Part shown: one piece after another, positions 444 through 8,839 of the stretch
Position numbering within the stretch: position 1 is the stretch's first letter
Layout: the number at the start of each line of letters is the position of its first letter
From: a virus
Taxonomy: Duplodnaviria > Heunggongvirae > Uroviricota > Caudoviricetes
Length of the DNA stretch: 9,561 bases
IMG/VR virus record: IMGVR_UViG_2541047595_000019
Strand: one strand, 5' to 3'
Notes under the pieces: generated by a model
Told to the model about the DNA's origin: nothing
What the model saw: only the letters and a program-made list of their open reading frames with translations
Databases searched by the model: none
Made by a program: the position numbers and the translations under genes

Positions 444-536
444 TCGTCAATTAACTGCATCCACCAGCCGCTAAGTTATTTAAACTTCTTCCTCTTTCTT
501 TCCTCCTGGTGGCGATCTTTTTTTATCGAGGTGGAA

Positions 537-2801: not shown

Positions 2802-2822
2802 TTGTTAGACGAAGGGGGTTAC

Positions 2823-3266
2823 ATGCCGATGAGACACCAGGCTGTCATTGAGCAGATCAAGCGGGAGCTAAGGGAACAAATCAAAGAGATTAGAGAGGAT
2901 GCGGCTACGGCGGCGTATGCAATCGGGATGGAAGTAATTGCCAATGCAGCAGTAGAAACGCCACGCGATACAGGGACGCTGATCGGTGGCTATTACGATC
3001 CGCAGGTAAGCCAGGATGATGAAGGTGTGCATTGCACGGTAGGAAACACGGTCCGCTATGCATATTGGGTGCATGAAATGCCGGGGACACTGAAAGGACA
3101 ACCGCGCGAACATTTCGGTAAGACGCGGGAAGGTATCGCATTTGGCGGCGGCACTGGCAGGGGTAACTATTGGGACCCGGACGCCGATCCTAAATTCCTT
3201 GAGCGGGCACTTAACGACCACAAAGCGGAGTATATGGATATAGCGATGAGATATCTTAAGAGGTAA
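2823..3266 (+). CDS. HK97 gp10-like phage virion component (head-tail joining / tail-component family), 147 aa from ATG 2823
   Basis: GAAGGGGG Shine-Dalgarno 4 nt before ATG 2823. Blocks ETPRDTGTLIGG, VGNTVRYAYWVHEMPG and KFLERALNDHK resemble the conserved TG-L, V-YA-YVEFG and PFL-PAL blocks of HK97 gp10-family proteins. This is from memory and is a moderate-confidence family call. Confidence 0.55.
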   Translation: MPMRHQAVIEQIKRELREQIKEIREDAATAAYAIGMEVIANAAVETPRDTGTLIGGYYDPQVSQDDEGVHCTVGNTVRYAYWVHEMPGTLKGQPREHFGKTREGIAFGGGTGRGNYWDPDADPKFLERALNDHKAEYMDIAMRYLKR

Positions 3267-3272
3267 GAAGAG

Positions 3273-5462
3273 ATGAGCGAGCAAGTCGGAAGCCTTCAGA
3301 TAGAGATTGACCTGAAGACAAAAAATTTACTGGTATCACAACGCCATGCTGAAAACGCGCTGGATGATATTGGCAATAAGATTGGCGGCGCAGAGCGACA
3401 AGCAGCAAAACTTAACACGCAGCTAACAAAAACATCGCGCGCTATTAGCGGCAATCTGCGTGCCGGATTCCAGCAGGCTGGATACCAGATTCAGGACTTC
3501 GTGGTGCAGGTCCAGTCAGGACAAAGCGCACTGATAGCGTTGTCACAGCAAGGCAGCCAGTTATTGAGTGCCTTCGGTGGCTGGGGTATTGCACTTGGTG
3601 CGGCGCTTACAGTTGGTGTATCGCTGTTTAAAGCCCTGACAGGTGAAACCGAGGAGACAACAGACAAGACCGAAGTATTTGAAAAGGCTTGCAGTAATTT
3701 ACGCCAGGTAATGGCCCTGAACGAGCAAGGCGTAAACGTCCTGTCAAACGAATACGCCAACCTCGCGAAACAGTCAGCCGAGGCCGCTGCGATGGTCGAA
3801 CGACATTTAACACTGAAACTACGCGAAGCCAAATCAGCGATGAGTGTCTATATCACCAATACACTGGACGCCCAAAACGCGACTGCGGGTTTTGGGATGA
3901 TTGGATCTGACAGTTTACTCGACATGATGCAGGCGATGCGTGCGCTGGGCGTTGAAACGTATGATTACGCCGACGCAATGGACCAGTTGAACGACATGGG
4001 CCTACGTGGTGCGCAGATCCATAAAGAGCTAAACCGCGAACTTGATGATATGGCAGATAAAACTGGCGTATCAAAAGAAGCGCTCTTTGATATGTGCCAG
4101 GAATTAATGGCGGTCGCTAAAGCGCCGACAGCGGACAGCATTTCAGCACTATCAAACCGCATTGCCAGCATGAACCCTACGACAGCGGAAGGTGTTGGCC
4201 TGTTTAATGAACTACAGCAGGCATTGATTAAAGCCGCTATTGAGCTTCAACAGTTCGGGGATATTAGCGAAGATACCGCCAATAAACTTGATGTATTAAA
4301 TCACGCGGCGGATTCTCAATGGGTGAAAGACTTTACAGAAAACATAAAGATGCAAACAAAGGCATTGGGAGCTTCACGCGGCGAAATCATGCGGTTACAG
4401 CTTGAGAATAAGAACCTTACAGTAGAAGAACGCGCCAATGCTGAACAGGCAATCAAGAATTACGAAGATAAACAAAATCGACTTGAACAAGAGAAAGAAG
4501 CGAAACGCCAGGCACTGGCAGCAGAACGCGCCGCCACCGCAGAACGCAAACGCCTGATGCGTGAAGAAGAGCAGGAGCGGAAACGCATTGAGCGTGAGAA
4601 AGAACAGCGCGAGCGCCAGACAAAACAAGCGAAACGCTTCACTGACCAGATCGAAACCAACTATCTGACAACCGTCAATCCGGCGACAGGTCAGGCAGAA
4701 AATCCGCTGGCAGCAATTCAGGCGCAACAGCAACGTGAATTCGAAATGCTGGAAATGTATCGCCAGCAGAATTTAGTCAGTGAGCAGCAATACCGTAACG
4801 CCCTGGAAAACATTATTAACACGTCAGCCATGCGCGTAGCAGCCATCGAGCAACAACAGGCGAGCGAATACAGTAAGAACATTCAGGGATTGATGAGCGC
4901 ATATAGCGGCATGTTTGGCGAGCTTGCTGGCGTTATTTCTGATGGTGCGGGCGAGCAGAGTGCAGCATATCGTGCGATGTTTGCAGTACAGAAAGGTTTT
5001 GCAATGGCATCCGCAGCATTGAGCCTTCAGGAGTCACTAGCGAAGGCTAACTCGCTCCCATTCCCGGCTAATATTCCGGCCTATGCGCAAGCATTAACAG
5101 CAGGTACGCAGATCATTTCAGCCATTCGCGGCATAGCTTTTGGTGGCGGTCGCTACAACGGAGGGGTGGTTGATTCGGGTAAATTCTATCGTGTCGGTGA
5201 GTCCAACAAGCCTGAGCTGTTTCAATCCGGTGGGCGACAGTACATGATTCCTGGTGAGGGCGGCAGGATTATCCCCAACCGCGATATTGGTGGCAGTGGT
5301 GGCGGCATCACACTGAACGTAACAAACAACATCCAGGCGACAAACGGCTGGACTGAAGACGACTCAAAAGCGTTGCAACAGACTATAGAAAACACAGCAA
5401 TGCGCCTGATGCAGCGCGAGTCGCAAAGACCTGGAGGCATGTTACAACCACGGCGGCGTTAA
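3273..5462 (+). CDS. Phage tail tape measure protein, lambda gpH-like, 729 aa
   Basis: AAGAGG Shine-Dalgarno before ATG 3273. The N-terminus (MSEQVGSLQIEIDL ... QVQSGQSALIALSQQGSQLLSAFGGWGIALGAAL) parallels lambda gpH (MAEPVGDLVVDL ... QLAGGQSPWLILLQQGGQVKDSFGG). The C-terminus is glycine-rich (AFGGGRYNGGVVDSGKFYRVGESNKPELF ... GGSGGG) like the lambda tape measure C-terminal domain. The centre is a long helical, highly charged ruler-like region. Confidence 0.85.
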   Translation: MSEQVGSLQIEIDLKTKNLLVSQRHAENALDDIGNKIGGAERQAAKLNTQLTKTSRAISGNLRAGFQQAGYQIQDFVVQVQSGQSALIALSQQGSQLLSAFGGWGIALGAALTVGVSLFKALTGETEETTDKTEVFEKACSNLRQVMALNEQGVNVLSNEYANLAKQSAEAAAMVERHLTLKLREAKSAMSVYITNTLDAQNATAGFGMIGSDSLLDMMQAMRALGVETYDYADAMDQLNDMGLRGAQIHKELNRELDDMADKTGVSKEALFDMCQELMAVAKAPTADSISALSNRIASMNPTTAEGVGLFNELQQALIKAAIELQQFGDISEDTANKLDVLNHAADSQWVKDFTENIKMQTKALGASRGEIMRLQLENKNLTVEERANAEQAIKNYEDKQNRLEQEKEAKRQALAAERAATAERKRLMREEEQERKRIEREKEQRERQTKQAKRFTDQIETNYLTTVNPATGQAENPLAAIQAQQQREFEMLEMYRQQNLVSEQQYRNALENIINTSAMRVAAIEQQQASEYSKNIQGLMSAYSGMFGELAGVISDGAGEQSAAYRAMFAVQKGFAMASAALSLQESLAKANSLPFPANIPAYAQALTAGTQIISAIRGIAFGGGRYNGGVVDSGKFYRVGESNKPELFQSGGRQYMIPGEGGRIIPNRDIGGSGGGITLNVTNNIQATNGWTEDDSKALQQTIENTAMRLMQRESQRPGGMLQPRRR

Positions 5463-5466
5463 CCAA

Positions 5467-5631
5467 ATCCCACGCCAGGGGGATAGACTGGCGGACCCTT
5501 CCCGGTTCTATGCGAAAAATCCCTCACAATTACCCTGCTAATTTGCCAGATTTCACGTACACACGCCAAACAAAAGCCCAGGCAGTTAGCAACCTACCCA
5601 GGCCTTTCTCACAATCCCCGCCGATATTATA
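5467..5631. repeat. Direct repeat copy A (~165 bp), immediately after the tape measure stop codon
   Basis: Near-identical to 8341-8551. The core ATAGACTGGCGGACCCTTCCCG...GAAAAATCCCTCACAATTACCCTGC.AATTTGCCAGATTTCACGTACAC.CGCC ... AGTTAGCAACCTACCCAGGCCTTTCTCACAATC.CCCGCCGATATTATA matches with a handful of substitutions, offset exactly 2880 bp. Confidence 0.85.
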
Positions 5632-5672
5632 ACCGCCATTCCCTGGTTTTATCATTTGTTGCCCAGCCTGCC

Positions 5673-5686
5673 ATTTGTAGACAAAT
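5673..5686. promoter_or_regulatory. Operator-like perfect palindrome ATTTGT-AG-ACAAAT
   Basis: 6-bp inverted arms around a 2-bp centre, about 90 bp upstream of the candidate promoter for the 5810 gene. CATTTGT is also present at 5653-5659. Confidence 0.3.
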
Positions 5687-5774
5687 CCCATCACACATAA
5701 ATCATCAACCAATAAATTGACCTAAATCATTTTATCAGTCGCTTAACCAGGTGTATTTTGTAGTCAAACAAGGG

Positions 5775-5801
5775 TTGACAAGGTTTAGCAACAAATATGA
5801 G
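5775..5801 (+). promoter_or_regulatory. Candidate promoter: TTGACA (5775-5780) and TATGAG (5796-5801) ahead of ATG 5810
   Basis: Consensus -35 hexamer. The -10-like hexamer is 15 bp downstream, which is a short spacer, and overlaps the GAGGTG Shine-Dalgarno. Confidence 0.3.
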
Positions 5802-5809
5802 GTGAAATC

Positions 5810-5998
5810 ATGAAACACGATAGAGCGGAAATTATCTTCGATATGGTGCGTGAAAGAGTGTGCGCTATGGATACTAAGATTGCACTGATAAGAGCGGGCG
5901 TGCCAGCAACTGCACAAGAACTACTGGTACTAATAGAAAGGCGTGAATACGAGCTAAGCAAAGCCAAAAGAGCATTTGCATTAATATACGCAAAATAA
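5810..5998 (+). CDS. Hypothetical small protein, 62 aa
   Basis: ATG 5810 preceded by GAGGTGAAATC. By eye it uses codons that are rare in enterobacteria (AGA, ATA, CTA), suggesting foreign origin. No family recognised. Confidence 0.55.
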   Translation: MKHDRAEIIFDMVRERVCAMDTKIALIRAGVPATAQELLVLIERREYELSKAKRAFALIYAK

Positions 5999-6017
5999 AC
6001 ACACGGGAGATTAAACA

Positions 6018-6248
6018 ATGGATAAAAATGAAGTAATCCTTCTTAGCCGCCCTGCCATTTGCCGGATGCTGGGCGGAATTAGCAGAGGCACGTTTTATTC
6101 GTGGCGTAAGAAATGGGAACAGAACGGAACTCCATTCCCCGACCCTGTTGATGTGCTGGGTACAGGGCGGGGTGTCATGTATCGCTATCAGGATGTGATG
6201 AAGTTCTTTAAATCGATTGGACTACTTTCTGACAGCGATAACCAGTAA
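6018..6248 (+). CDS. Third AlpA/excisionase-like HTH protein, 76 aa
   Basis: GGGAG Shine-Dalgarno 8 nt before ATG 6018. Translation LLSRPAICRMLGGISRGTFYSWRKK ... FPDPVDVLGTGRGVMYRYQDVMKFF fits the AlpA/Xis HTH-wing pattern. Confidence 0.6.
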   Translation: MDKNEVILLSRPAICRMLGGISRGTFYSWRKKWEQNGTPFPDPVDVLGTGRGVMYRYQDVMKFFKSIGLLSDSDNQ

Positions 6249-6265
6249 TCATCTAACTTGCTAAT

Positions 6266-6288
6266 ACCCGGCCCCGCGCCGGGTTTTT
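6266..6288 (+). terminator. Rho-independent terminator (CCCGGC-CCCGC-GCCGGG followed by TTTTT)
   Basis: 6-bp GC stem, 5-nt loop and a T5 run, 18 nt after the stop at 6246-6248. The 22-nt core is identical to 7861-7882. Confidence 0.7.
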
Positions 6289-6384
6289 GATCCCTGTCAA
6301 CTTCCCCATCAAAGCGGCTACCATCACCCGCTTTTTGTTGATAAATTAGAAAGCAAAACGTTTAGCGACAAAATGAGGTAATGT

Positions 6385-7068
6385 ATGGAATACATGGATT
6401 GGGTTGAGTTAGGCATGAACAAGCGCGCTCGCAAGATGACGCGGCAAGATGTCGCTGAGGCAATGGGCTTCAAAGGCAAAGGCGCTGCTAGCCACAAGTT
6501 TAAAGGGCGTCGCGATACAACAAACAAGACCGCTGATGATGTGTTTAAAATGCTCGCCGCAGTCGGTTGGCAAGCTGTCATCTTCGATAGCAACGGGAAG
6601 ATCGTAATGGGTACGGCACACGTTGATAGCCCGGACGGCATGGAACAAAAATTTATCAAGCGTTGCGAAGAACTAGCCAGAGAAAACGAGGCGCTAAAGG
6701 CTGAGATTGATATGTTGAAAAACCAGCTAAACAACAAAATCGATATTGTAGACAAACCAGTTAATCAACAAATCGAGACCAAGGGCGACGCTATTGTAGG
6801 AGAACCAGCTAAACAACAAAAAGCGGCGGGCGGACGTCCGGCAAAATTCAAAGTAGAACAGCTTGAGCAATGGCTTAAGGAGCAAGGCGGATACAAGGGG
6901 ACTATCGACGATTTGGCGTTATATGCGTTCGGTAAGATCGGCAAAGATGGCAAGCTGCATGGCGCACCAGGCCGCCACTGGATGTACAAGGCGTTAGCTA
7001 AACTGGAGGACGAGGGGAAAATTGCCAAAGAGGCAGCGACAAGGAGCGGGATTAATATTGTTGCTTAA
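6385..7068 (+). CDS. Putative DNA-binding regulator, 227 aa (HTH-like N-terminus, central coiled coil, basic C-terminal domain)
   Basis: TGAGGT Shine-Dalgarno 6 nt before ATG 6385. The N-terminus MTRQDVAEAMGFKG...DDVFKML looks like a Cro/CI-type HTH. EELARENEALKAEIDMLKNQL is a heptad-like coiled coil. Family not confidently recognised. Confidence 0.65.
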   Translation: MEYMDWVELGMNKRARKMTRQDVAEAMGFKGKGAASHKFKGRRDTTNKTADDVFKMLAAVGWQAVIFDSNGKIVMGTAHVDSPDGMEQKFIKRCEELARENEALKAEIDMLKNQLNNKIDIVDKPVNQQIETKGDAIVGEPAKQQKAAGGRPAKFKVEQLEQWLKEQGGYKGTIDDLALYAFGKIGKDGKLHGAPGRHWMYKALAKLEDEGKIAKEAATRSGINIVA

Positions 7069-7191: not shown

Positions 7192-7302
7192 TGATATTAA
7201 CGCAGCGTTTTGATAACCATTCAGTTAAGAATCGCAACAACTAAAGGAGGTGATAAAGGCTGGCGAGCCGTTGCCCTATGGCAGCAAAACGGGAGCAACA
7301 AC

Positions 7303-7854
7303 ATGTTTGACTTGGTACAGGTTGATAGCGAGTGGCGCATTAGTAGTCTTGAGTTGTTGGACTTGGTTAATCAGATTCGTGTGGCTGAAGGTCTTAACAA
7401 ACTGCCGCCGAACAGATTCAACAAGAAAATTAAAGACGAGCTTGAAGGTGAAAGTCTCTACTGGCATAAAATGCGCATTAATATAAATCAACAACTTACA
7501 AAAGAAGTTGAGATTTGTGAACTCACTGGAGACCAGGCTTTAAGAGTGGGGATGCGCGAATTTAAGCGTGTCAGGGCAAAAGTAGTAGAACGAATCAACC
7601 AATTGCGATTGGAGGTATCGCAGTACAAACTGATTCAACAATGCGCAGACAAGGCAGATCAGGCGGTAGCGTTAGCCAACGAAGGCAAGTTAAACGAAGT
7701 AGCGGATCTCATTGTGATAGCGAAACGCGAGTATCTACCGCTATCAAGCGCGGCAGGTAAAACGCTAAATAGGTGTAGACCGACGAAACGCAAACTGAAC
7801 CAGTCGGAAAACTATATTGGTAGTCTTCTTCAAATCGACTTGTTCCCTGAGTGA
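7303..7854 (+). CDS. Hypothetical protein, 183 aa from ATG 7303; possible phage regulatory (Rha/antirepressor-like) protein
   Basis: GGGAG Shine-Dalgarno 7 nt before ATG 7303. The track's 7210 start is TTG with no Shine-Dalgarno. The N-terminal WRISSLELLDLVNQIRVAEGLNKL is reminiscent of Rha-type phage regulators, but the match is weak. Confidence 0.55.
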   Translation: MFDLVQVDSEWRISSLELLDLVNQIRVAEGLNKLPPNRFNKKIKDELEGESLYWHKMRININQQLTKEVEICELTGDQALRVGMREFKRVRAKVVERINQLRLEVSQYKLIQQCADKADQAVALANEGKLNEVADLIVIAKREYLPLSSAAGKTLNRCRPTKRKLNQSENYIGSLLQIDLFPE

Positions 7855-7860
7855 TAGTTC

Positions 7861-7882
7861 ACCCGGCCCCGCGCCGGGTTTT
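7861..7882 (+). terminator. Rho-independent terminator, identical core to 6266-6287 (ACCCGGCCCCGCGCCGGGTTTT)
   Basis: Same stem-loop followed by TTTT, 7 nt after the stop at 7852-7854. Confidence 0.7.
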
Positions 7883-8100
7883 AATGCCATCATTATTAAA
7901 TCTATTAATGCTCATTAAACCATAATTAGCATAACTTATAATCGAACAAAAATCACACAAATCAGATAATGATTTTTTCTGGTTATACTTATCTAAAAAA
8001 GTGGTATAGGATGTAACTTATTATTTTGTAAGGGCAAATTTATTGCGTGGCCAGATGAACAGGCTTGCGCACCTCCCGAAAAACACGCGAAAATCTAAGT

Positions 8101-8210
8101 GTTCTTTCTTTTTTTGTTTTTATTTTTTCATTTTCTCTTTCTTCTCTTTTCCGGTTTCTCTTCTTTCTGGTTTTGGTTTTTTCCTTTTTATTTTTATTCT
8201 TTCTTACCGT
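8101..8210. repeat. Low-complexity polypyrimidine (T/C) tract, ~110 nt
   Basis: By manual count about 96 of 110 bases are T or C, with roughly 5 A and 9 G. There is no regular periodicity. It sits in an AT-rich non-coding spacer (7883-8340). Confidence 0.8.
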
Positions 8211-8340
8211 TGGGGTAAAAACACCAAAACATTTTCGCCACAAAAGCATTAATTTCATCCTGCCAGACCAATCATTTTCACCGGATACACAGCCGGATAT
8301 AATCTCACTAACACCACACCACCCCGCACCACACCTGATA

Positions 8341-8551
8341 AATCCCGTATTCAGGAAGGGGAATAGACTGGCGGACCCTTCCCGCTTCTACATGAAAAAT
8401 CCCTCACAATTACCCTGCCAATTTGCCAGATTTCACGTACACGCGCCTATATCCCCGCTACCGGATACGCGCCGCTTATACCGGATAAACAAAGGCCCAG
8501 GTAGTTAGCAACCTACCCAGGCCTTTCTCACAATCACCCGCCGATATTATA
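8341..8551. repeat. Direct repeat copy B (~210 bp), carrying a 39-bp insertion (8448-8486) relative to copy A
   Basis: Aligns with 5467-5631. The insertion TATATCCCCGCTACCGGATACGCGCCGCTTATACCGGAT contains two CCGGATA motifs. Confidence 0.85.
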
Positions 8552-8670
8552 TCACCCACCCTGCCGTTTTCAGGCGGGAGGTGAATAGCCGTCACTTGTT
8601 GCATAATTGATTAATTTCCGACCAATTAAATTAACTCCCACCAATACACGCTAGATGGGAGGTGGATTTT

Positions 8671-8742
8671 GTGACGCAGATCACTTTCTCTATTCCTGCA
8701 TTTTTGTTTAATTCAATCAACGGAAGGCAACTCCCAGGCTGA
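8671..8742 (+). CDS. Mini-ORF, 23 aa (GTG start; TQITFSIPAFLFNSINGRQLPG), speculative
   Basis: GGGAGGTG Shine-Dalgarno 6 nt before GTG 8671. The upstream motif TAGATGGGAGGTG (8652-8664) is repeated exactly at 8748-8760. Confidence 0.2.
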   Translation: MTQITFSIPAFLFNSINGRQLPG

Positions 8743-8765
8743 AAGGATAGATGGGAGGTGAAATC

Positions 8766-8828
8766 ATGAAGCGGTGGGAAGTGATTTTACTGATGGTGAT
8801 GATGTTTGTTATGTGCGTGGAGTATTAA
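8766..8828 (+). CDS. Mini-ORF encoding a 20-aa hydrophobic peptide (MKRWEVILLMVMMFVMCVEY)
   Basis: GGGAGGTG Shine-Dalgarno 5 nt before ATG 8766. The stop at 8826-8828 overlaps the Shine-Dalgarno of the next gene. Composition resembles small membrane toxin or leader peptides. Confidence 0.3.
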   Translation: MKRWEVILLMVMMFVMCVEY

Positions 8829-8839
8829 GGGGGGCAATT

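What the first reader, a model, noticed from the sequence alone, without database searches (positions are those of the whole stretch)
8101..8210. A ~110-nt polypyrimidine tract in the AT-rich spacer before repeat copy B
Roughly nine-tenths T/C by manual count, with no regular period. A purine/pyrimidine strand asymmetry of this length is unusual in enterobacterial-type DNA. It can form triplex (H-DNA) structures, act as a protein or RNA binding platform, or be the footprint of a degenerate element. A shorter pure-pyrimidine run with a similar CTCTTTCTT core lies at 483-507, between the first two AlpA-like genes. The ORFs in the track that cross the tract look like low-complexity artefacts.
Basis: seen in the sequence. 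Interest (0 to 1): 0.5.

Follow-up and report, generated by a model that had tools for sequence, protein, structure and literature searches.

The report
Conserved mirror-repeat pyrimidine tract, island end
The T-rich tract is real: it is a conserved, non-coding, mirror-symmetric pyrimidine stretch at the right end of a CPZ-55-type E. coli genomic island, and its two halves have changed in step in different strains, which is what one expects if the DNA folds into a three-stranded (H-DNA) structure that matters to the element.

Summary
Positions 8102-8205 are 89% pyrimidine on the + strand, far beyond chance.

The tract lies in a 380-bp AT-rich non-coding module (7883-8262). This module sits between the terminator of the last island gene and the ~90-bp att arm ending in the CPZ-55 core TCAGGAAG (8351-8358).

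The same module ends IntZ-type islands at eutA in about 146 of 5,426 complete E. coli genomes. A copy is also on the EPEC plasmid pMAR2. Sister islands lack it.

The tract is not a tandem repeat and not a gene. Its nucleotides are 90-100% conserved where the flanks are 74-78%. Indels nevertheless put different variants in different reading frames.

The new point is that the whole tract is a mirror repeat centred on TCCGG. All 30 full-length copies (9 haplotypes) have perfect 14-15-nt inner arms. Outward, the T-run lengths mirror each other. Between haplotype clades the mirror-paired runs changed together (3/3, 4/4, 5/5; and 5/5 to 6/6).

This supports a selected H-DNA (triplex) motif. Its role is inferred, most likely a supercoil-dependent block to transcription or replication entering the island end.

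The link to 483-507 is not supported.

The parts
8102..8205 (+). Polypyrimidine (T-rich) tract; the whole tract is an imperfect mirror repeat (H-palindrome). The - strand is A/G-rich.
   Evidence: 89% pyrimidine, segment score 60 against a shuffle maximum of 35. Mirror alignment of the left half against the reversed right half scores 29; block-permuted null has mean 17 and maximum 28, with 0 of 5000 reaching the observed score.
8136..8149 (+). Left inner mirror arm, TCTTTCTTCTCTTT (perfect)
   Evidence: All 30 full-length copies have perfect 14-15-nt arms.
8150..8154 (+). Centre / loop of the mirror repeat, TCCGG
   Evidence: Invariant in all haplotypes.
8155..8168 (+). Right inner mirror arm, TTTCTCTTCTTTCT (perfect mirror of 8136-8149)
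7883..8262 (.). AT-rich non-coding accessory module that carries the tract. It is present in some CPZ-55-family islands and absent from others.
   Evidence: Sister islands L011 and L012 join the terminator directly to the att arm. K-12 CPZ-55 lacks the module. The module is present in about 146 of 5426 genomes.
7861..7882 (+). Intrinsic terminator hairpin of the last island gene (7210-7854); left boundary of the module
   Evidence: ACCCGGCCCCGCGCCGGGTTTT is identical to 6266-6287. Boundary seen in the alignments.
8263..8350 (+). att arm shared by all family members. It has two CCGGATA direct repeats (8281-8287, 8293-8299) and an outward sigma-70-like promoter match (8275-8303).
   Evidence: CCGGATA occurs 4 times in the window; 0 of 200 shuffles reach 4.
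8351..8358 (+). Core TCAGGAAG, the right end of the island (attR crossover region)
   Evidence: This is the 8-bp duplication reported for CPZ-55 (PMC6379469). The same end abuts eutA, yghO, a plasmid umuC-like gene and, in this window, repeat B.
8357..8560 (+). Repeat copy B: the post-tape-measure segment of a second, sister element (copy A is 5477-5640). It is not part of the tract-bearing element.

Best explanation
The tract is a cis-acting, non-coding homopyrimidine/homopurine mirror repeat (an H-motif). It lies about 150-250 bp inside the right (attR, int-distal) end of a CPZ-55-family integrative island.

Shown: it is conserved at the nucleotide level, it is mirror-symmetric about TCCGG, and its mirror-paired T runs co-vary.

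Inferred mechanism: under negative superhelical stress, one half of the pyrimidine strand folds back into the major groove of the other half. Such stress would arise in the small excised circle, or behind an RNA polymerase. Folding would be nucleated by the perfect 14-15-nt inner arms, would form T.A*T / C.G*C+ triads, and would leave an A-rich half-strand single-stranded.

Inferred role: a supercoil-dependent structural block or switch at the island end. The most likely version is a polar barrier to transcription (or forks) entering from the host side. Inbound transcripts, such as eut operon read-through, carry the purine-rich strand as coding strand, and no intrinsic terminator faces that direction.
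For: (1) Strand purity and size far exceed chance.

(2) Mirror symmetry. The inner arms 8136-8149 and 8155-8168 are perfect around TCCGG. Read outward, the run series are: left T4/CTCTTC/T3/CTC/T4/AC/T6/A/T5/G/T7/C/T3/C/T2, and right T3/CTCTTC/T3/CTGG/T4/GG/T6/CC/T5/A/T5AT2/C/T3/C/T2. None of 5000 block-permuted nulls reach the observed mirror score. With a free centre the counts are 0/400 (V1), 1/400 (V3) and 29/400 (V2b).

(3) It is not a tandem repeat. That is the only known non-selective source of long mirror repeats (PMC12214015).

(4) Covariation. All 9 haplotypes in 30 sequences keep perfect 14-15-nt arms. Mirror-paired T runs changed together: r1 = 3/3, 4/4, 5/5; r4 = 5/5, 5/5, 6/6; r0 = 4/3, 3/2, 3/2. 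Under a rough model, two branches with four indels each, all mirror-paired, has P about 1e-4.

(5) Purifying selection on nucleotides. Tract identity is 90-97% against 74-78% in the flanks for the deep split (P = 1.6e-8 and 8.8e-5). The tract stays intact when the upstream half of the module is deleted (MB19).

(6) Coding, Rfam and folding explanations fail.

(7) H-DNA and purine-coding-strand tracts are known to block RNA polymerases, and negative supercoiling drives H-DNA formation (PMC4538819; PMC11667243).
Against: No structural or expression data exist; triplex formation is only inferred.

- The tract has 12-14 purine interruptions. The outer arms need mismatches and 1-nt bulges, and interrupted tracts form H-DNA less readily in vivo (PMC11667243).
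- The perfect core arms are only 14-15 nt. Chance probability of such arms in this composition is 0.014-0.03.
- The covariation rests on three clades.
- The left outer arm shows unpaired changes: 7-nt deletions in pMAR2 and AHB5, and -1 in L019. One low-coverage contig (L023) has r1 = 4/5.
- V2b alone is not significantly mirror-symmetric with a free centre (29/400).
- Sister islands and K-12 CPZ-55 do without the module. A lineage with IS1 inside the tract persists. So the tract is dispensable.
- The invariance of the right-arm separators (GG, GG, CC, A, A) is not explained by triplex pairing.
- The barrier role is pure inference.
Confidence: 0.45

Rival explanations
1. Architectural or protein-binding platform of the attP/attR arm. 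The symmetric pattern of T runs (A-tracts) and separators is read by a symmetric nucleoprotein complex (Int, an AlpA/Xis-like factor, H-NS, Fis or similar) that shapes the intasome or silences the end.
For: The tract lies 75-180 bp from two CCGGATA repeats and about 150-250 bp from the core. CCGGATA-type sites also flank the int start in the left arm. In short islands they flank the module on both sides. The island encodes three AlpA-like winged-helix proteins (and sequence). The exact right-arm separators are conserved.
Against: Dyad-symmetric proteins need inverted repeats, not mirror repeats. All T runs and C blocks stay on one strand (CTTCTC mirrored as CTCTTC, not GAGAAG). T runs are spaced 6-8 bp apart, so they are not helically phased and give no planar bend. 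No IHF consensus occurs in the module. Islands without the module keep the same arm and core.
Confidence: 0.15
2. A small Phe/Leu/Ser-rich membrane peptide or Phe-codon leader ORF on the + strand (8055-8252, MNRLAHLPKNTRKSKCSFFF...), or a Lys-rich peptide on the - strand.
For: An ATG-initiated ORF runs through the tract in most variants. The N-terminal KxKCSFFF and the C-terminal SPQK are in one frame in V1 (window), V2 and V3. Two database entries call it a protein. PGAP annotates - strand ORFs.
Against: A purine-poor strand has almost no stop codons, so open frames are automatic. The middle is read in different frames in V1, V2 and V3, so the amino-acid sequences differ while the nucleotides are about 95% identical. 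Five haplotypes carry independent frameshifts (TOK-001 type, pMAR2 type, L018, L019, L035), and the MB19 type has lost the ATG. By my reading of the alignment, 7 of 11 substitutions upstream of the tract fall at codon position 2 (a hand count, not a tool output). Purines are avoided at third positions too. The PGAP - strand calls are in different frames in different strains. Only 2 proteins were found among 5.8 billion.
Confidence: 0.06
3. An RNA-level element. One version is a U/C-rich + strand RNA acting as a Rho (rut), S1 or Hfq platform, or as a third strand on DNA. The other version is an A-rich (ARN)n - strand RNA made by read-through from eutA that binds Hfq.
For: There is extreme strand asymmetry and both RNAs are predicted to be unstructured. 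The - strand RNA is a run of A-R-N triplets (sequence). Mirror symmetry would also allow the RNA of one arm to bind the duplex of the other arm.
Against: No Rfam match. No promoter-like site lies inside the module, and an intrinsic terminator stands just upstream on the + strand. C is only about 18%, which is atypical for rut. The tract keeps its sequence in contexts without eutA (pMAR2, this window). Simple RNA-binding platforms do not need mirror symmetry.
Confidence: 0.1
4. Functionless low-complexity DNA. It was made by slippage in an AT-rich spacer and hitch-hikes with the att arm; the apparent symmetry and covariation are chance.
For: The module is dispensable: it is absent from sister islands and K-12, and IS1 has disrupted it in one lineage. 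Phylogenetic depth is shallow (E. coli only). There are only three clades. Perfect 14-nt arms have P about 0.02.
Against: The tract is the best-conserved segment of the module (P = 1.6e-8). It is not an STR. 0 of 5000 nulls reach the mirror score. Eight indels on the two deep branches form four same-direction mirror pairs (about 1e-4).
Confidence: 0.15
5. DNA-unwinding element of a replication origin of the excised island, like the purine/pyrimidine-asymmetric AT-rich segment next to the iterons of ori-lambda.
For: It is the most AT-rich stretch of the window. Its strand asymmetry resembles lambdoid ori AT-rich regions (my own knowledge, not tested).
Against: No initiator, helicase or primase gene was recognised in the island. 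No DnaA boxes or iterons lie next to the tract. The module is absent from otherwise complete sister islands.
Confidence: 0.04

Closest known systems
H-motifs / H-palindromes (homopurine-homopyrimidine mirror repeats forming H-DNA), e.g. (GA)n, (GAA)n, c-MYC promoter element
   Same: One strand is almost all pyrimidine. There is mirror symmetry about a short spacer, with perfect 14-15-nt inner arms. Expected behaviour is a supercoil-driven intramolecular triplex that stalls polymerases (PMC4538819, PMC11667243).
   Different: [quoted passage not shown] It is T-rich rather than GA/GAA. It is interrupted by 12-14 purines. It sits on a bacterial mobile element and shows mirror-preserving compensatory indels between alleles. 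I know of no report of that feature for any H-motif (own knowledge).
TMECO / BoxC intrastrand triplex motifs of E. coli (Holder et al. 2015, PMC4666352)
   Same: These are triplex-prone sequences in E. coli associated with rearranged loci. The module studied here also lies at a mosaic, IS-targeted boundary.
   Different: TMECO is G/C-rich, about 40 nt, with three blocks on one strand (C-stem plus two G-stems), in many copies per genome. The tract here is A/T-rich, about 104 nt, a two-arm duplex mirror repeat, with one copy per island.
CPZ-55 cryptic prophage attR (E. coli K-12, eutA/eutB)
   Same: Same 8-bp core TCAGGAAG, same ~90-bp arm (78% identity over 8280-8356), and the same insertion point after the eutA stop in most homologues.
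   Different: K-12 CPZ-55 has no AT-rich module and no tract. The window's island carries tape-measure-like, tail-completion-like, HNH and AlpA-like genes, and it abuts a sister element instead of eutA.
AT-rich, strand-asymmetric unwinding region of lambdoid origins
   Same: AT-rich with purines on one strand.
   Different: About 40 bp next to iterons inside an initiator gene. Here there are no iterons and no initiator, the tract is 104 nt, and it is mirror-symmetric.

Membership tests
H-motif (H-DNA-forming mirror repeat) | Homopurine on one strand and homopyrimidine on the other | tested here: met
   89% Y over 104 nt. Uninterrupted Y runs are 22, 14, 14 and 13 nt. The inner arms are 100% pyrimidine. 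Overall purity is imperfect, with 12-14 purines.
H-motif (H-DNA-forming mirror repeat) | Mirror symmetry of the two halves about a short spacer | tested here: met
   Perfect 14-15-nt arms with a 5-nt spacer in 30 of 30 copies. By my hand count from the run series, about 43 of 52 positions match across the extended arms. 0 of 5000 permuted nulls reach the mirror score.
H-motif (H-DNA-forming mirror repeat) | Supercoil-dependent (and pH- or Mg-dependent) transition to an intramolecular triplex with a single-stranded half | not testable with these tools
   Needs S1, KMnO4 or DEPC probing, or 2D gels.
Simple tandem repeat / microsatellite | Head-to-tail copies of a short unit | tested here: not met
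   TRF gives only sub-threshold rows (score 30-39) over 8105-8134.
Protein-coding gene (either strand) | A conserved reading frame and amino-acid sequence, with substitutions concentrated at synonymous sites | tested here: not met
   The frame differs between V1, V2 and V3. Five haplotypes are frameshifted. The ATG is lost in the MB19 type. Nucleotides are more conserved than residues.
Known RNA family (Rfam 15) | Match to a covariance model | tested here: not met
   No match at E <= 1 in the whole window. No stable fold on either strand (z = 0.09 and 0.11).
CPZ-55-family integrative element, right end | Terminal arm ending in the core TCAGGAAG, next to the host target | tested here: met
   The core is at 8351-8358. 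The arm is homologous to eutA-, yghO- and plasmid-borne copies.
CPZ-55-family integrative element, right end | IntZ-type tyrosine integrase at the other end | tested here: inconclusive
   The integrase lies outside the window. In B4103-1, the homologue whose left 2.8 kb is 98.6% identical, the int gene ends exactly where the window starts.
Rho utilisation (rut) site | C-rich, G-poor unstructured RNA downstream of a promoter | tested here: not met
   C is about 18% and U about 69%. The tract is unstructured. There is no upstream promoter match, and a terminator stands just upstream.
Replication origin DUE | AT-rich unwinding segment next to initiator boxes or iterons, with an initiator gene | tested here: not met
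   No DnaA boxes or iterons in 7883-8262. No replication protein was recognised.

The most novel reading that the evidence does not exclude
The tract is a selection-maintained H-DNA element. Mirror-paired indels in diverged alleles would be evolutionary covariation evidence that an intramolecular DNA triplex forms and is functional in vivo in bacteria. This is comparable to the compensatory base changes used to prove RNA helices. Here the triplex would act as a structural insulator or switch at the end of a phage-related island.
Probability: 0.35. Interest if true: 0.85.

Novelty: new variant of a known kind. Interest (0 to 1): 0.6.

Why it matters
[quoted passage not shown] In the human genome, long mirror repeats are reported to arise only as by-products of tandem-repeat expansion (PMC12214015). 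Whether H-DNA is ever a selected, functional structure remains contested.

A non-tandem mirror repeat of about 104 nt, kept symmetric by paired indels across diverged alleles of a bacterial mobile element, would offer two things:
- a natural, genetically tractable test case in E. coli, because mirror-breaking and mirror-restoring alleles already exist as designs;
- a covariation-style criterion for finding functional non-B DNA elsewhere.

For mobile-element biology, it would point to a DNA-structure-based insulator or switch at an island end that faces a strongly inducible host operon (eut).

Tried and rejected
- Coding on the + strand (Phe-rich 65-aa ORF) and on the - strand (Lys-rich ORFs). 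Rejected on frame inconsistency, frameshift haplotypes, loss of the start codon and the substitution pattern.
- Known RNA. No Rfam match, no tRNA or tmRNA, no fold.
- Tandem repeat or periodic A-tract bending. TRF is sub-threshold, and the T-run autocorrelation peaks at lag 7, not 10-11.
- MITE or insertion with target duplication. The module boundaries show no terminal repeats or clean duplication.
- Origin of replication. No DnaA boxes or iterons.
- IHF site in the module. None found.
- Internal promoter for the tract. None passes the scan. The candidate -10 in the conserved left block is not conserved in EP91B (sequence).
- Kinship with 485-507. Rejected.
- Wider phylogenetic reach:
  - the exact 21-mer scan of GTDB representative genomes gave only 5 chance hits in unrelated phyla;
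  - viral contigs gave none;
  - the INPHARED phage collection gave none.
- Similarity of the tract to lambda cosB (an 11-mer, TTTTCCGGTTT, recalled from memory). Judged chance-level and not pursued.

Full report
**1. Observation**

Positions 8101-8210 hold 76 T, 20 C, 9 G and 5 A. The maximal pyrimidine-rich segment is 8102-8205 (104 nt, 89% Y). Its segment score is 60; the highest score in 2000 shuffles of the window, on either strand, was 35. The surrounding 7900-8300 is about 33% GC. TRF finds only sub-threshold periodicities over 8105-8134.

**2. Where the tract sits**

The window is E. coli-like mobile DNA.
- The first 2.8 kb are 98.6% identical to an island of strain B4103-1, whose integrase ends exactly at window position 1.
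- The last 0.5 kb are 98.9% identical to an island of strain CEA106S.

The genes, all on the + strand, include:
- an AlpA-type regulator and further AlpA-like HTH genes;
- an HNH endonuclease;
- a tail-completion-like protein;
- a 729-aa tape-measure-like protein.

The layout downstream of the last gene (7210-7854) is as follows.
- A terminator hairpin at 7861-7882.
- A 380-bp AT-rich stretch with no credible gene (7883-8262), which contains the tract.
- An arm of about 90 bp (8263-8350) with two CCGGATA repeats.
- The sequence TCAGGAAG (8351-8358).

TCAGGAAG is the 8-bp duplication reported for CPZ-55 integration after the eutA stop codon (PMC6379469).

The same module + arm + core forms the right end of IntZ-type islands next to eutA in E. 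coli. The full module is present in 146 of 5,426 complete genomes. The identical end is also joined to a truncated umuC-like gene on the EPEC EAF plasmid pMAR2 and related plasmids. The arm and core alone are joined to yghO in another strain.

In the window the core is followed by 'repeat B' (8357-8560). Repeat B is the segment that normally follows the tape-measure gene; copy A (5477-5640) follows this island's own tape-measure gene. So the window shows one island (E1) ending at 8358 and abutting the distal part of a sister element (E2). No complete E. coli genome has this junction.

Sister islands (CEA106S at eutA, the yghO island) and K-12 CPZ-55 lack 7883-8262 altogether. In them the terminator is joined to the arm through 7-11 bp. 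The module is therefore an accessory, non-essential part of the right end. No other polypyrimidine tract exists in any of these islands.

**3. Not a gene, not a known RNA, not an artefact**

Rfam gives nothing at E <= 1, and neither strand folds.

ORFs cross the tract on both strands because a purine-poor strand has almost no stop codons. The evidence against coding is as follows.
- The + strand ORF (8055-8252) keeps a similar N-terminus, but its hydrophobic middle is read in different frames in the three main variants. The peptide sequences therefore differ although the DNA is about 95% identical.
- Five haplotypes carry independent frameshifts.
- The MB19-type module has lost the ATG.
- By my reading of the alignment, substitutions upstream of the tract fall mainly on codon position 2.
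- PGAP's - strand calls use different frames in different strains.
- Only two predicted proteins in 5.8 billion correspond to the ORF.

The tract recurs, base for base, in long-read complete genomes, in plasmids and in metagenome contigs. It is therefore not an assembly error.

**4. Conservation**

Across the deepest split among module alleles (1EC213/pMAR2 type against the others), the flanking module is 74-78% identical. The tract is 90-97% identical: 4 differences in 106 aligned positions between 1EC213 and EP91B, P = 1.6e-8. The att arm is 86-90% identical. The tract is unchanged in MB19-type modules, which have lost about 45 bp of the upstream block. This rules out a decaying remnant.

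**5. The key finding: mirror symmetry with covariation**

The tract is a mirror repeat centred on TCCGG (8150-8154). The inner arms, 8136-8149 (TCTTTCTTCTCTTT) and 8155-8168 (TTTCTCTTCTTTCT), are perfect mirror images.

Read outward from the centre, the two halves give the same series of T-run lengths:
- left: T4, CTCTTC, T3, CTC, T4, AC, T6, A, T5, G, T7, C, T3, C, T2;
- right: T3, CTCTTC, T3, CTGG, T4, GG, T6, CC, T5, A, T5-A-T2, C, T3, C, T2.

Statistical checks on the symmetry:
- A global alignment of the left half with the reversed right half scores 29. When the T runs and separators of the right half are permuted, the mean is 17 and the maximum 28, with 0 of 5000 reaching the observed score. 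The direct (non-reversed) alignment scores 19.
- With the centre left free, 0/400 (V1), 1/400 (V3) and 29/400 (V2b) nulls reach the observed score.
- Perfect arms of at least 14 nt have P of about 0.014-0.03 in this composition.

In 30 full-length copies there are 9 haplotypes, and all have perfect 14-15-nt arms around TCCGG.

Between the three clades, the mirror-paired runs differ together:

| Run pair (left/right) | V1 (window, TOK-001) | V2 (1EC213, pMAR2) | V3 (EP91B, MB19, O157:H7) |
|---|---|---|---|
| run next to the C block (r1) | 3/3 | 4/4 | 5/5 |
| central runs (r0) | 4/3 | 3/2 | 3/2 |
| fifth run (r4) | 5/5 | 5/5 | 6/6 |

On the tree suggested by the flanks, (V2,(V1,V3)), this makes eight indels on two branches, all in four same-direction mirror pairs. 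In a simple simulation this has P of about 1e-4.

In strain TBE6, a T-to-A change in the left outer run creates T4-A-T2 opposite the right arm's T5-A-T2.

Counter-examples exist, and all are terminal:
- 7-nt deletions in the left outer arm (pMAR2, AHB5);
- a 1-nt loss (L019);
- unpaired changes in the fourth run;
- one 2.5x-coverage contig with 4/5 (L023);
- an IS1 inserted in the left arm (EC931, L027).

**6. Interpretation**

Replication cannot copy a sequence backwards without complementing it. Mirror repeats are therefore not produced by duplication. In the human genome long mirror repeats are reported to be tandem repeats, and H-DNA formation is the only functional property known for them (PMC12214015). 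This tract is not a tandem repeat, is strand-pure in its core, and keeps its symmetry through paired changes. The simplest reading is selection for an intramolecular triplex.

Proteins with two-fold symmetry would require inverted repeats, not mirror repeats. Direct-repeat pairing of the arms does not fit the run lengths (3/3, 4/2, 5/2).

What the triplex does is inferred. H-DNA is driven by negative supercoiling and hinders RNA polymerases, and tracts with purines in the coding strand block transcription (PMC4538819; PMC11667243). Three features of the locus fit a barrier role.
- In the usual location, the strongly inducible eut operon reads into the island's right end, making the purine-rich strand the coding strand.
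- No intrinsic terminator faces that way: the 7861-7882 hairpin has a T run only on the + strand.
- An outward promoter-like site and the recombination arm lie just beside the tract.

I therefore favour a supercoil-dependent polar block or switch protecting or regulating the island end. A role in recombination, or in the mosaicism of this boundary (IS1 hits, deletions, fusions at the module's left edge), is a second possibility.

Weaknesses of this reading:
- 12-14 purine interruptions and bulged outer arms;
- interrupted motifs form H-DNA less well in vivo;
- only three clades support the covariation;
- the module is dispensable;
- the invariant right-arm separators are unexplained;
- there are no structural or expression data.

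**7. Comparison with known things**

The tract meets the sequence definition of an H-motif. Triplex formation itself is untestable here. It differs from textbook H-motifs in four ways: it is non-tandem, T-rich, interrupted and bacterial. It also differs from the G/C-rich three-block TMECO/BoxC intrastrand triplex motifs of E. coli (PMC4666352). The host element is a CPZ-55-family island by core, arm and insertion site.

The 485-507 run is unrelated. It exists only in this island variant. Sister islands have a GCGGTGAGG...CCTCACCGC hairpin followed by a T run at that place.

**8. Verdict**

The feature is real and conserved. It is best filed as a new variant of a known kind (H-motif), with an unusual and testable evolutionary signature. 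Confidence that it is a selected cis-acting mirror repeat with a triplex-based role is about 0.45. Confidence in the specific barrier role is lower, about 0.25.

Noticed in passing
window 8340-8380 (junction), 5477-5640 and 8357-8560 (repeats A and B): The island that carries the tract ends at the core TCAGGAAG (8351-8358). It is joined, through a 2-5-nt AGG microhomology, to the segment that normally follows the tape-measure gene of a sister element. This looks like one CPZ-55-family element inserted into, or fused with, another. No complete E. coli genome among 5,426 has this junction.
   Followed up: partly
window 8281-8287, 8293-8299, 8461-8467, 8481-8487; L016 about 190-225 (left arm of the EP91B island): The CCGGATA motif occurs only four times in the window, always in pairs: in the att arm and in repeat B (0 of 200 shuffles reach 4). 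CCGGATAC and its inverse also flank the intZ start in the left arm. These are probably integrase arm-type or excisionase sites.
   Followed up: partly
window 8275-8303 (+): A sigma-70-like site, TTTTCA-17-TATAAT, points outward across the core and overlaps the CCGGATA repeats. It is conserved in islands with and without the module. After excision it would face the int gene, about 170 nt beyond the core, so it is a possible circle-specific int promoter.
   Followed up: no
window 8546-8573 (-) and 8493-8526; the same in repeat A, about 5617-5640 and 5574-5607: A leftward promoter-like site (CTGAAA-16-TATAAT with TG) is followed about 20 nt later by a GC-rich hairpin with T runs on both sides. 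This could give a very short antisense RNA or act as a bidirectional terminator. It is conserved in both repeat copies.
   Followed up: no
window 3273-5462, 2802-3266, 757-1152, 243-443, 531-770, 6018-6248: The island encodes a full-length tape-measure-like protein (PHROG 1538, E = 1e-96), a tail-completion/Neck1-like protein, an HNH endonuclease and three AlpA-like HTH proteins. No recognisable replication or capsid genes were found. This is a phage-satellite-like gene set that I could not match to a described satellite family.
   Followed up: partly
L014 (pMAR2) 2824-6464; L002 5087-9472: The EPEC EAF plasmid pMAR2 carries the same gadC-like / murI-like / IS1 / module / arm / core block as the eutA island of strain 1EC213. 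On the plasmid it is inserted in a truncated umuC-like gene. The island's right end has therefore moved between chromosome and virulence plasmid.
   Followed up: partly
L004 9253-10024 (EC931) and metagenome L027: IS1 is inserted inside the left arm of the tract at the same position in a complete genome and in a metagenome contig. Another IS1 sits exactly at the left edge of the module in 1EC213-type islands and in pMAR2.
   Followed up: no
window 8633-8664 and 8729-8760; 8767-8829; L001 11784-11879: Two direct repeats, AACTCCCA...GATGGGAGGTG, precede tiny ORFs. One encodes a 20-aa hydrophobic peptide (MKRWEVILLMVMMFVMCVEY). TOK-001 has a different 31-aa hydrophobic ORF at the equivalent place. 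These may be small membrane peptides.
   Followed up: no
window 6266-6287 and 7861-7882: Two identical 22-nt terminator hairpins (ACCCGGCCCCGCGCCGGGTTTT) end consecutive gene cassettes. This suggests cassette exchange by recombination at terminators.
   Followed up: no
window 485-507 versus L005 4340-4391: Upstream of the second AlpA-like gene, this island has a pure 23-nt pyrimidine run. Sister islands have a hairpin plus T run (terminator or attenuator-like) at the same place. These are alternative leader architectures for the same gene.
   Followed up: partly
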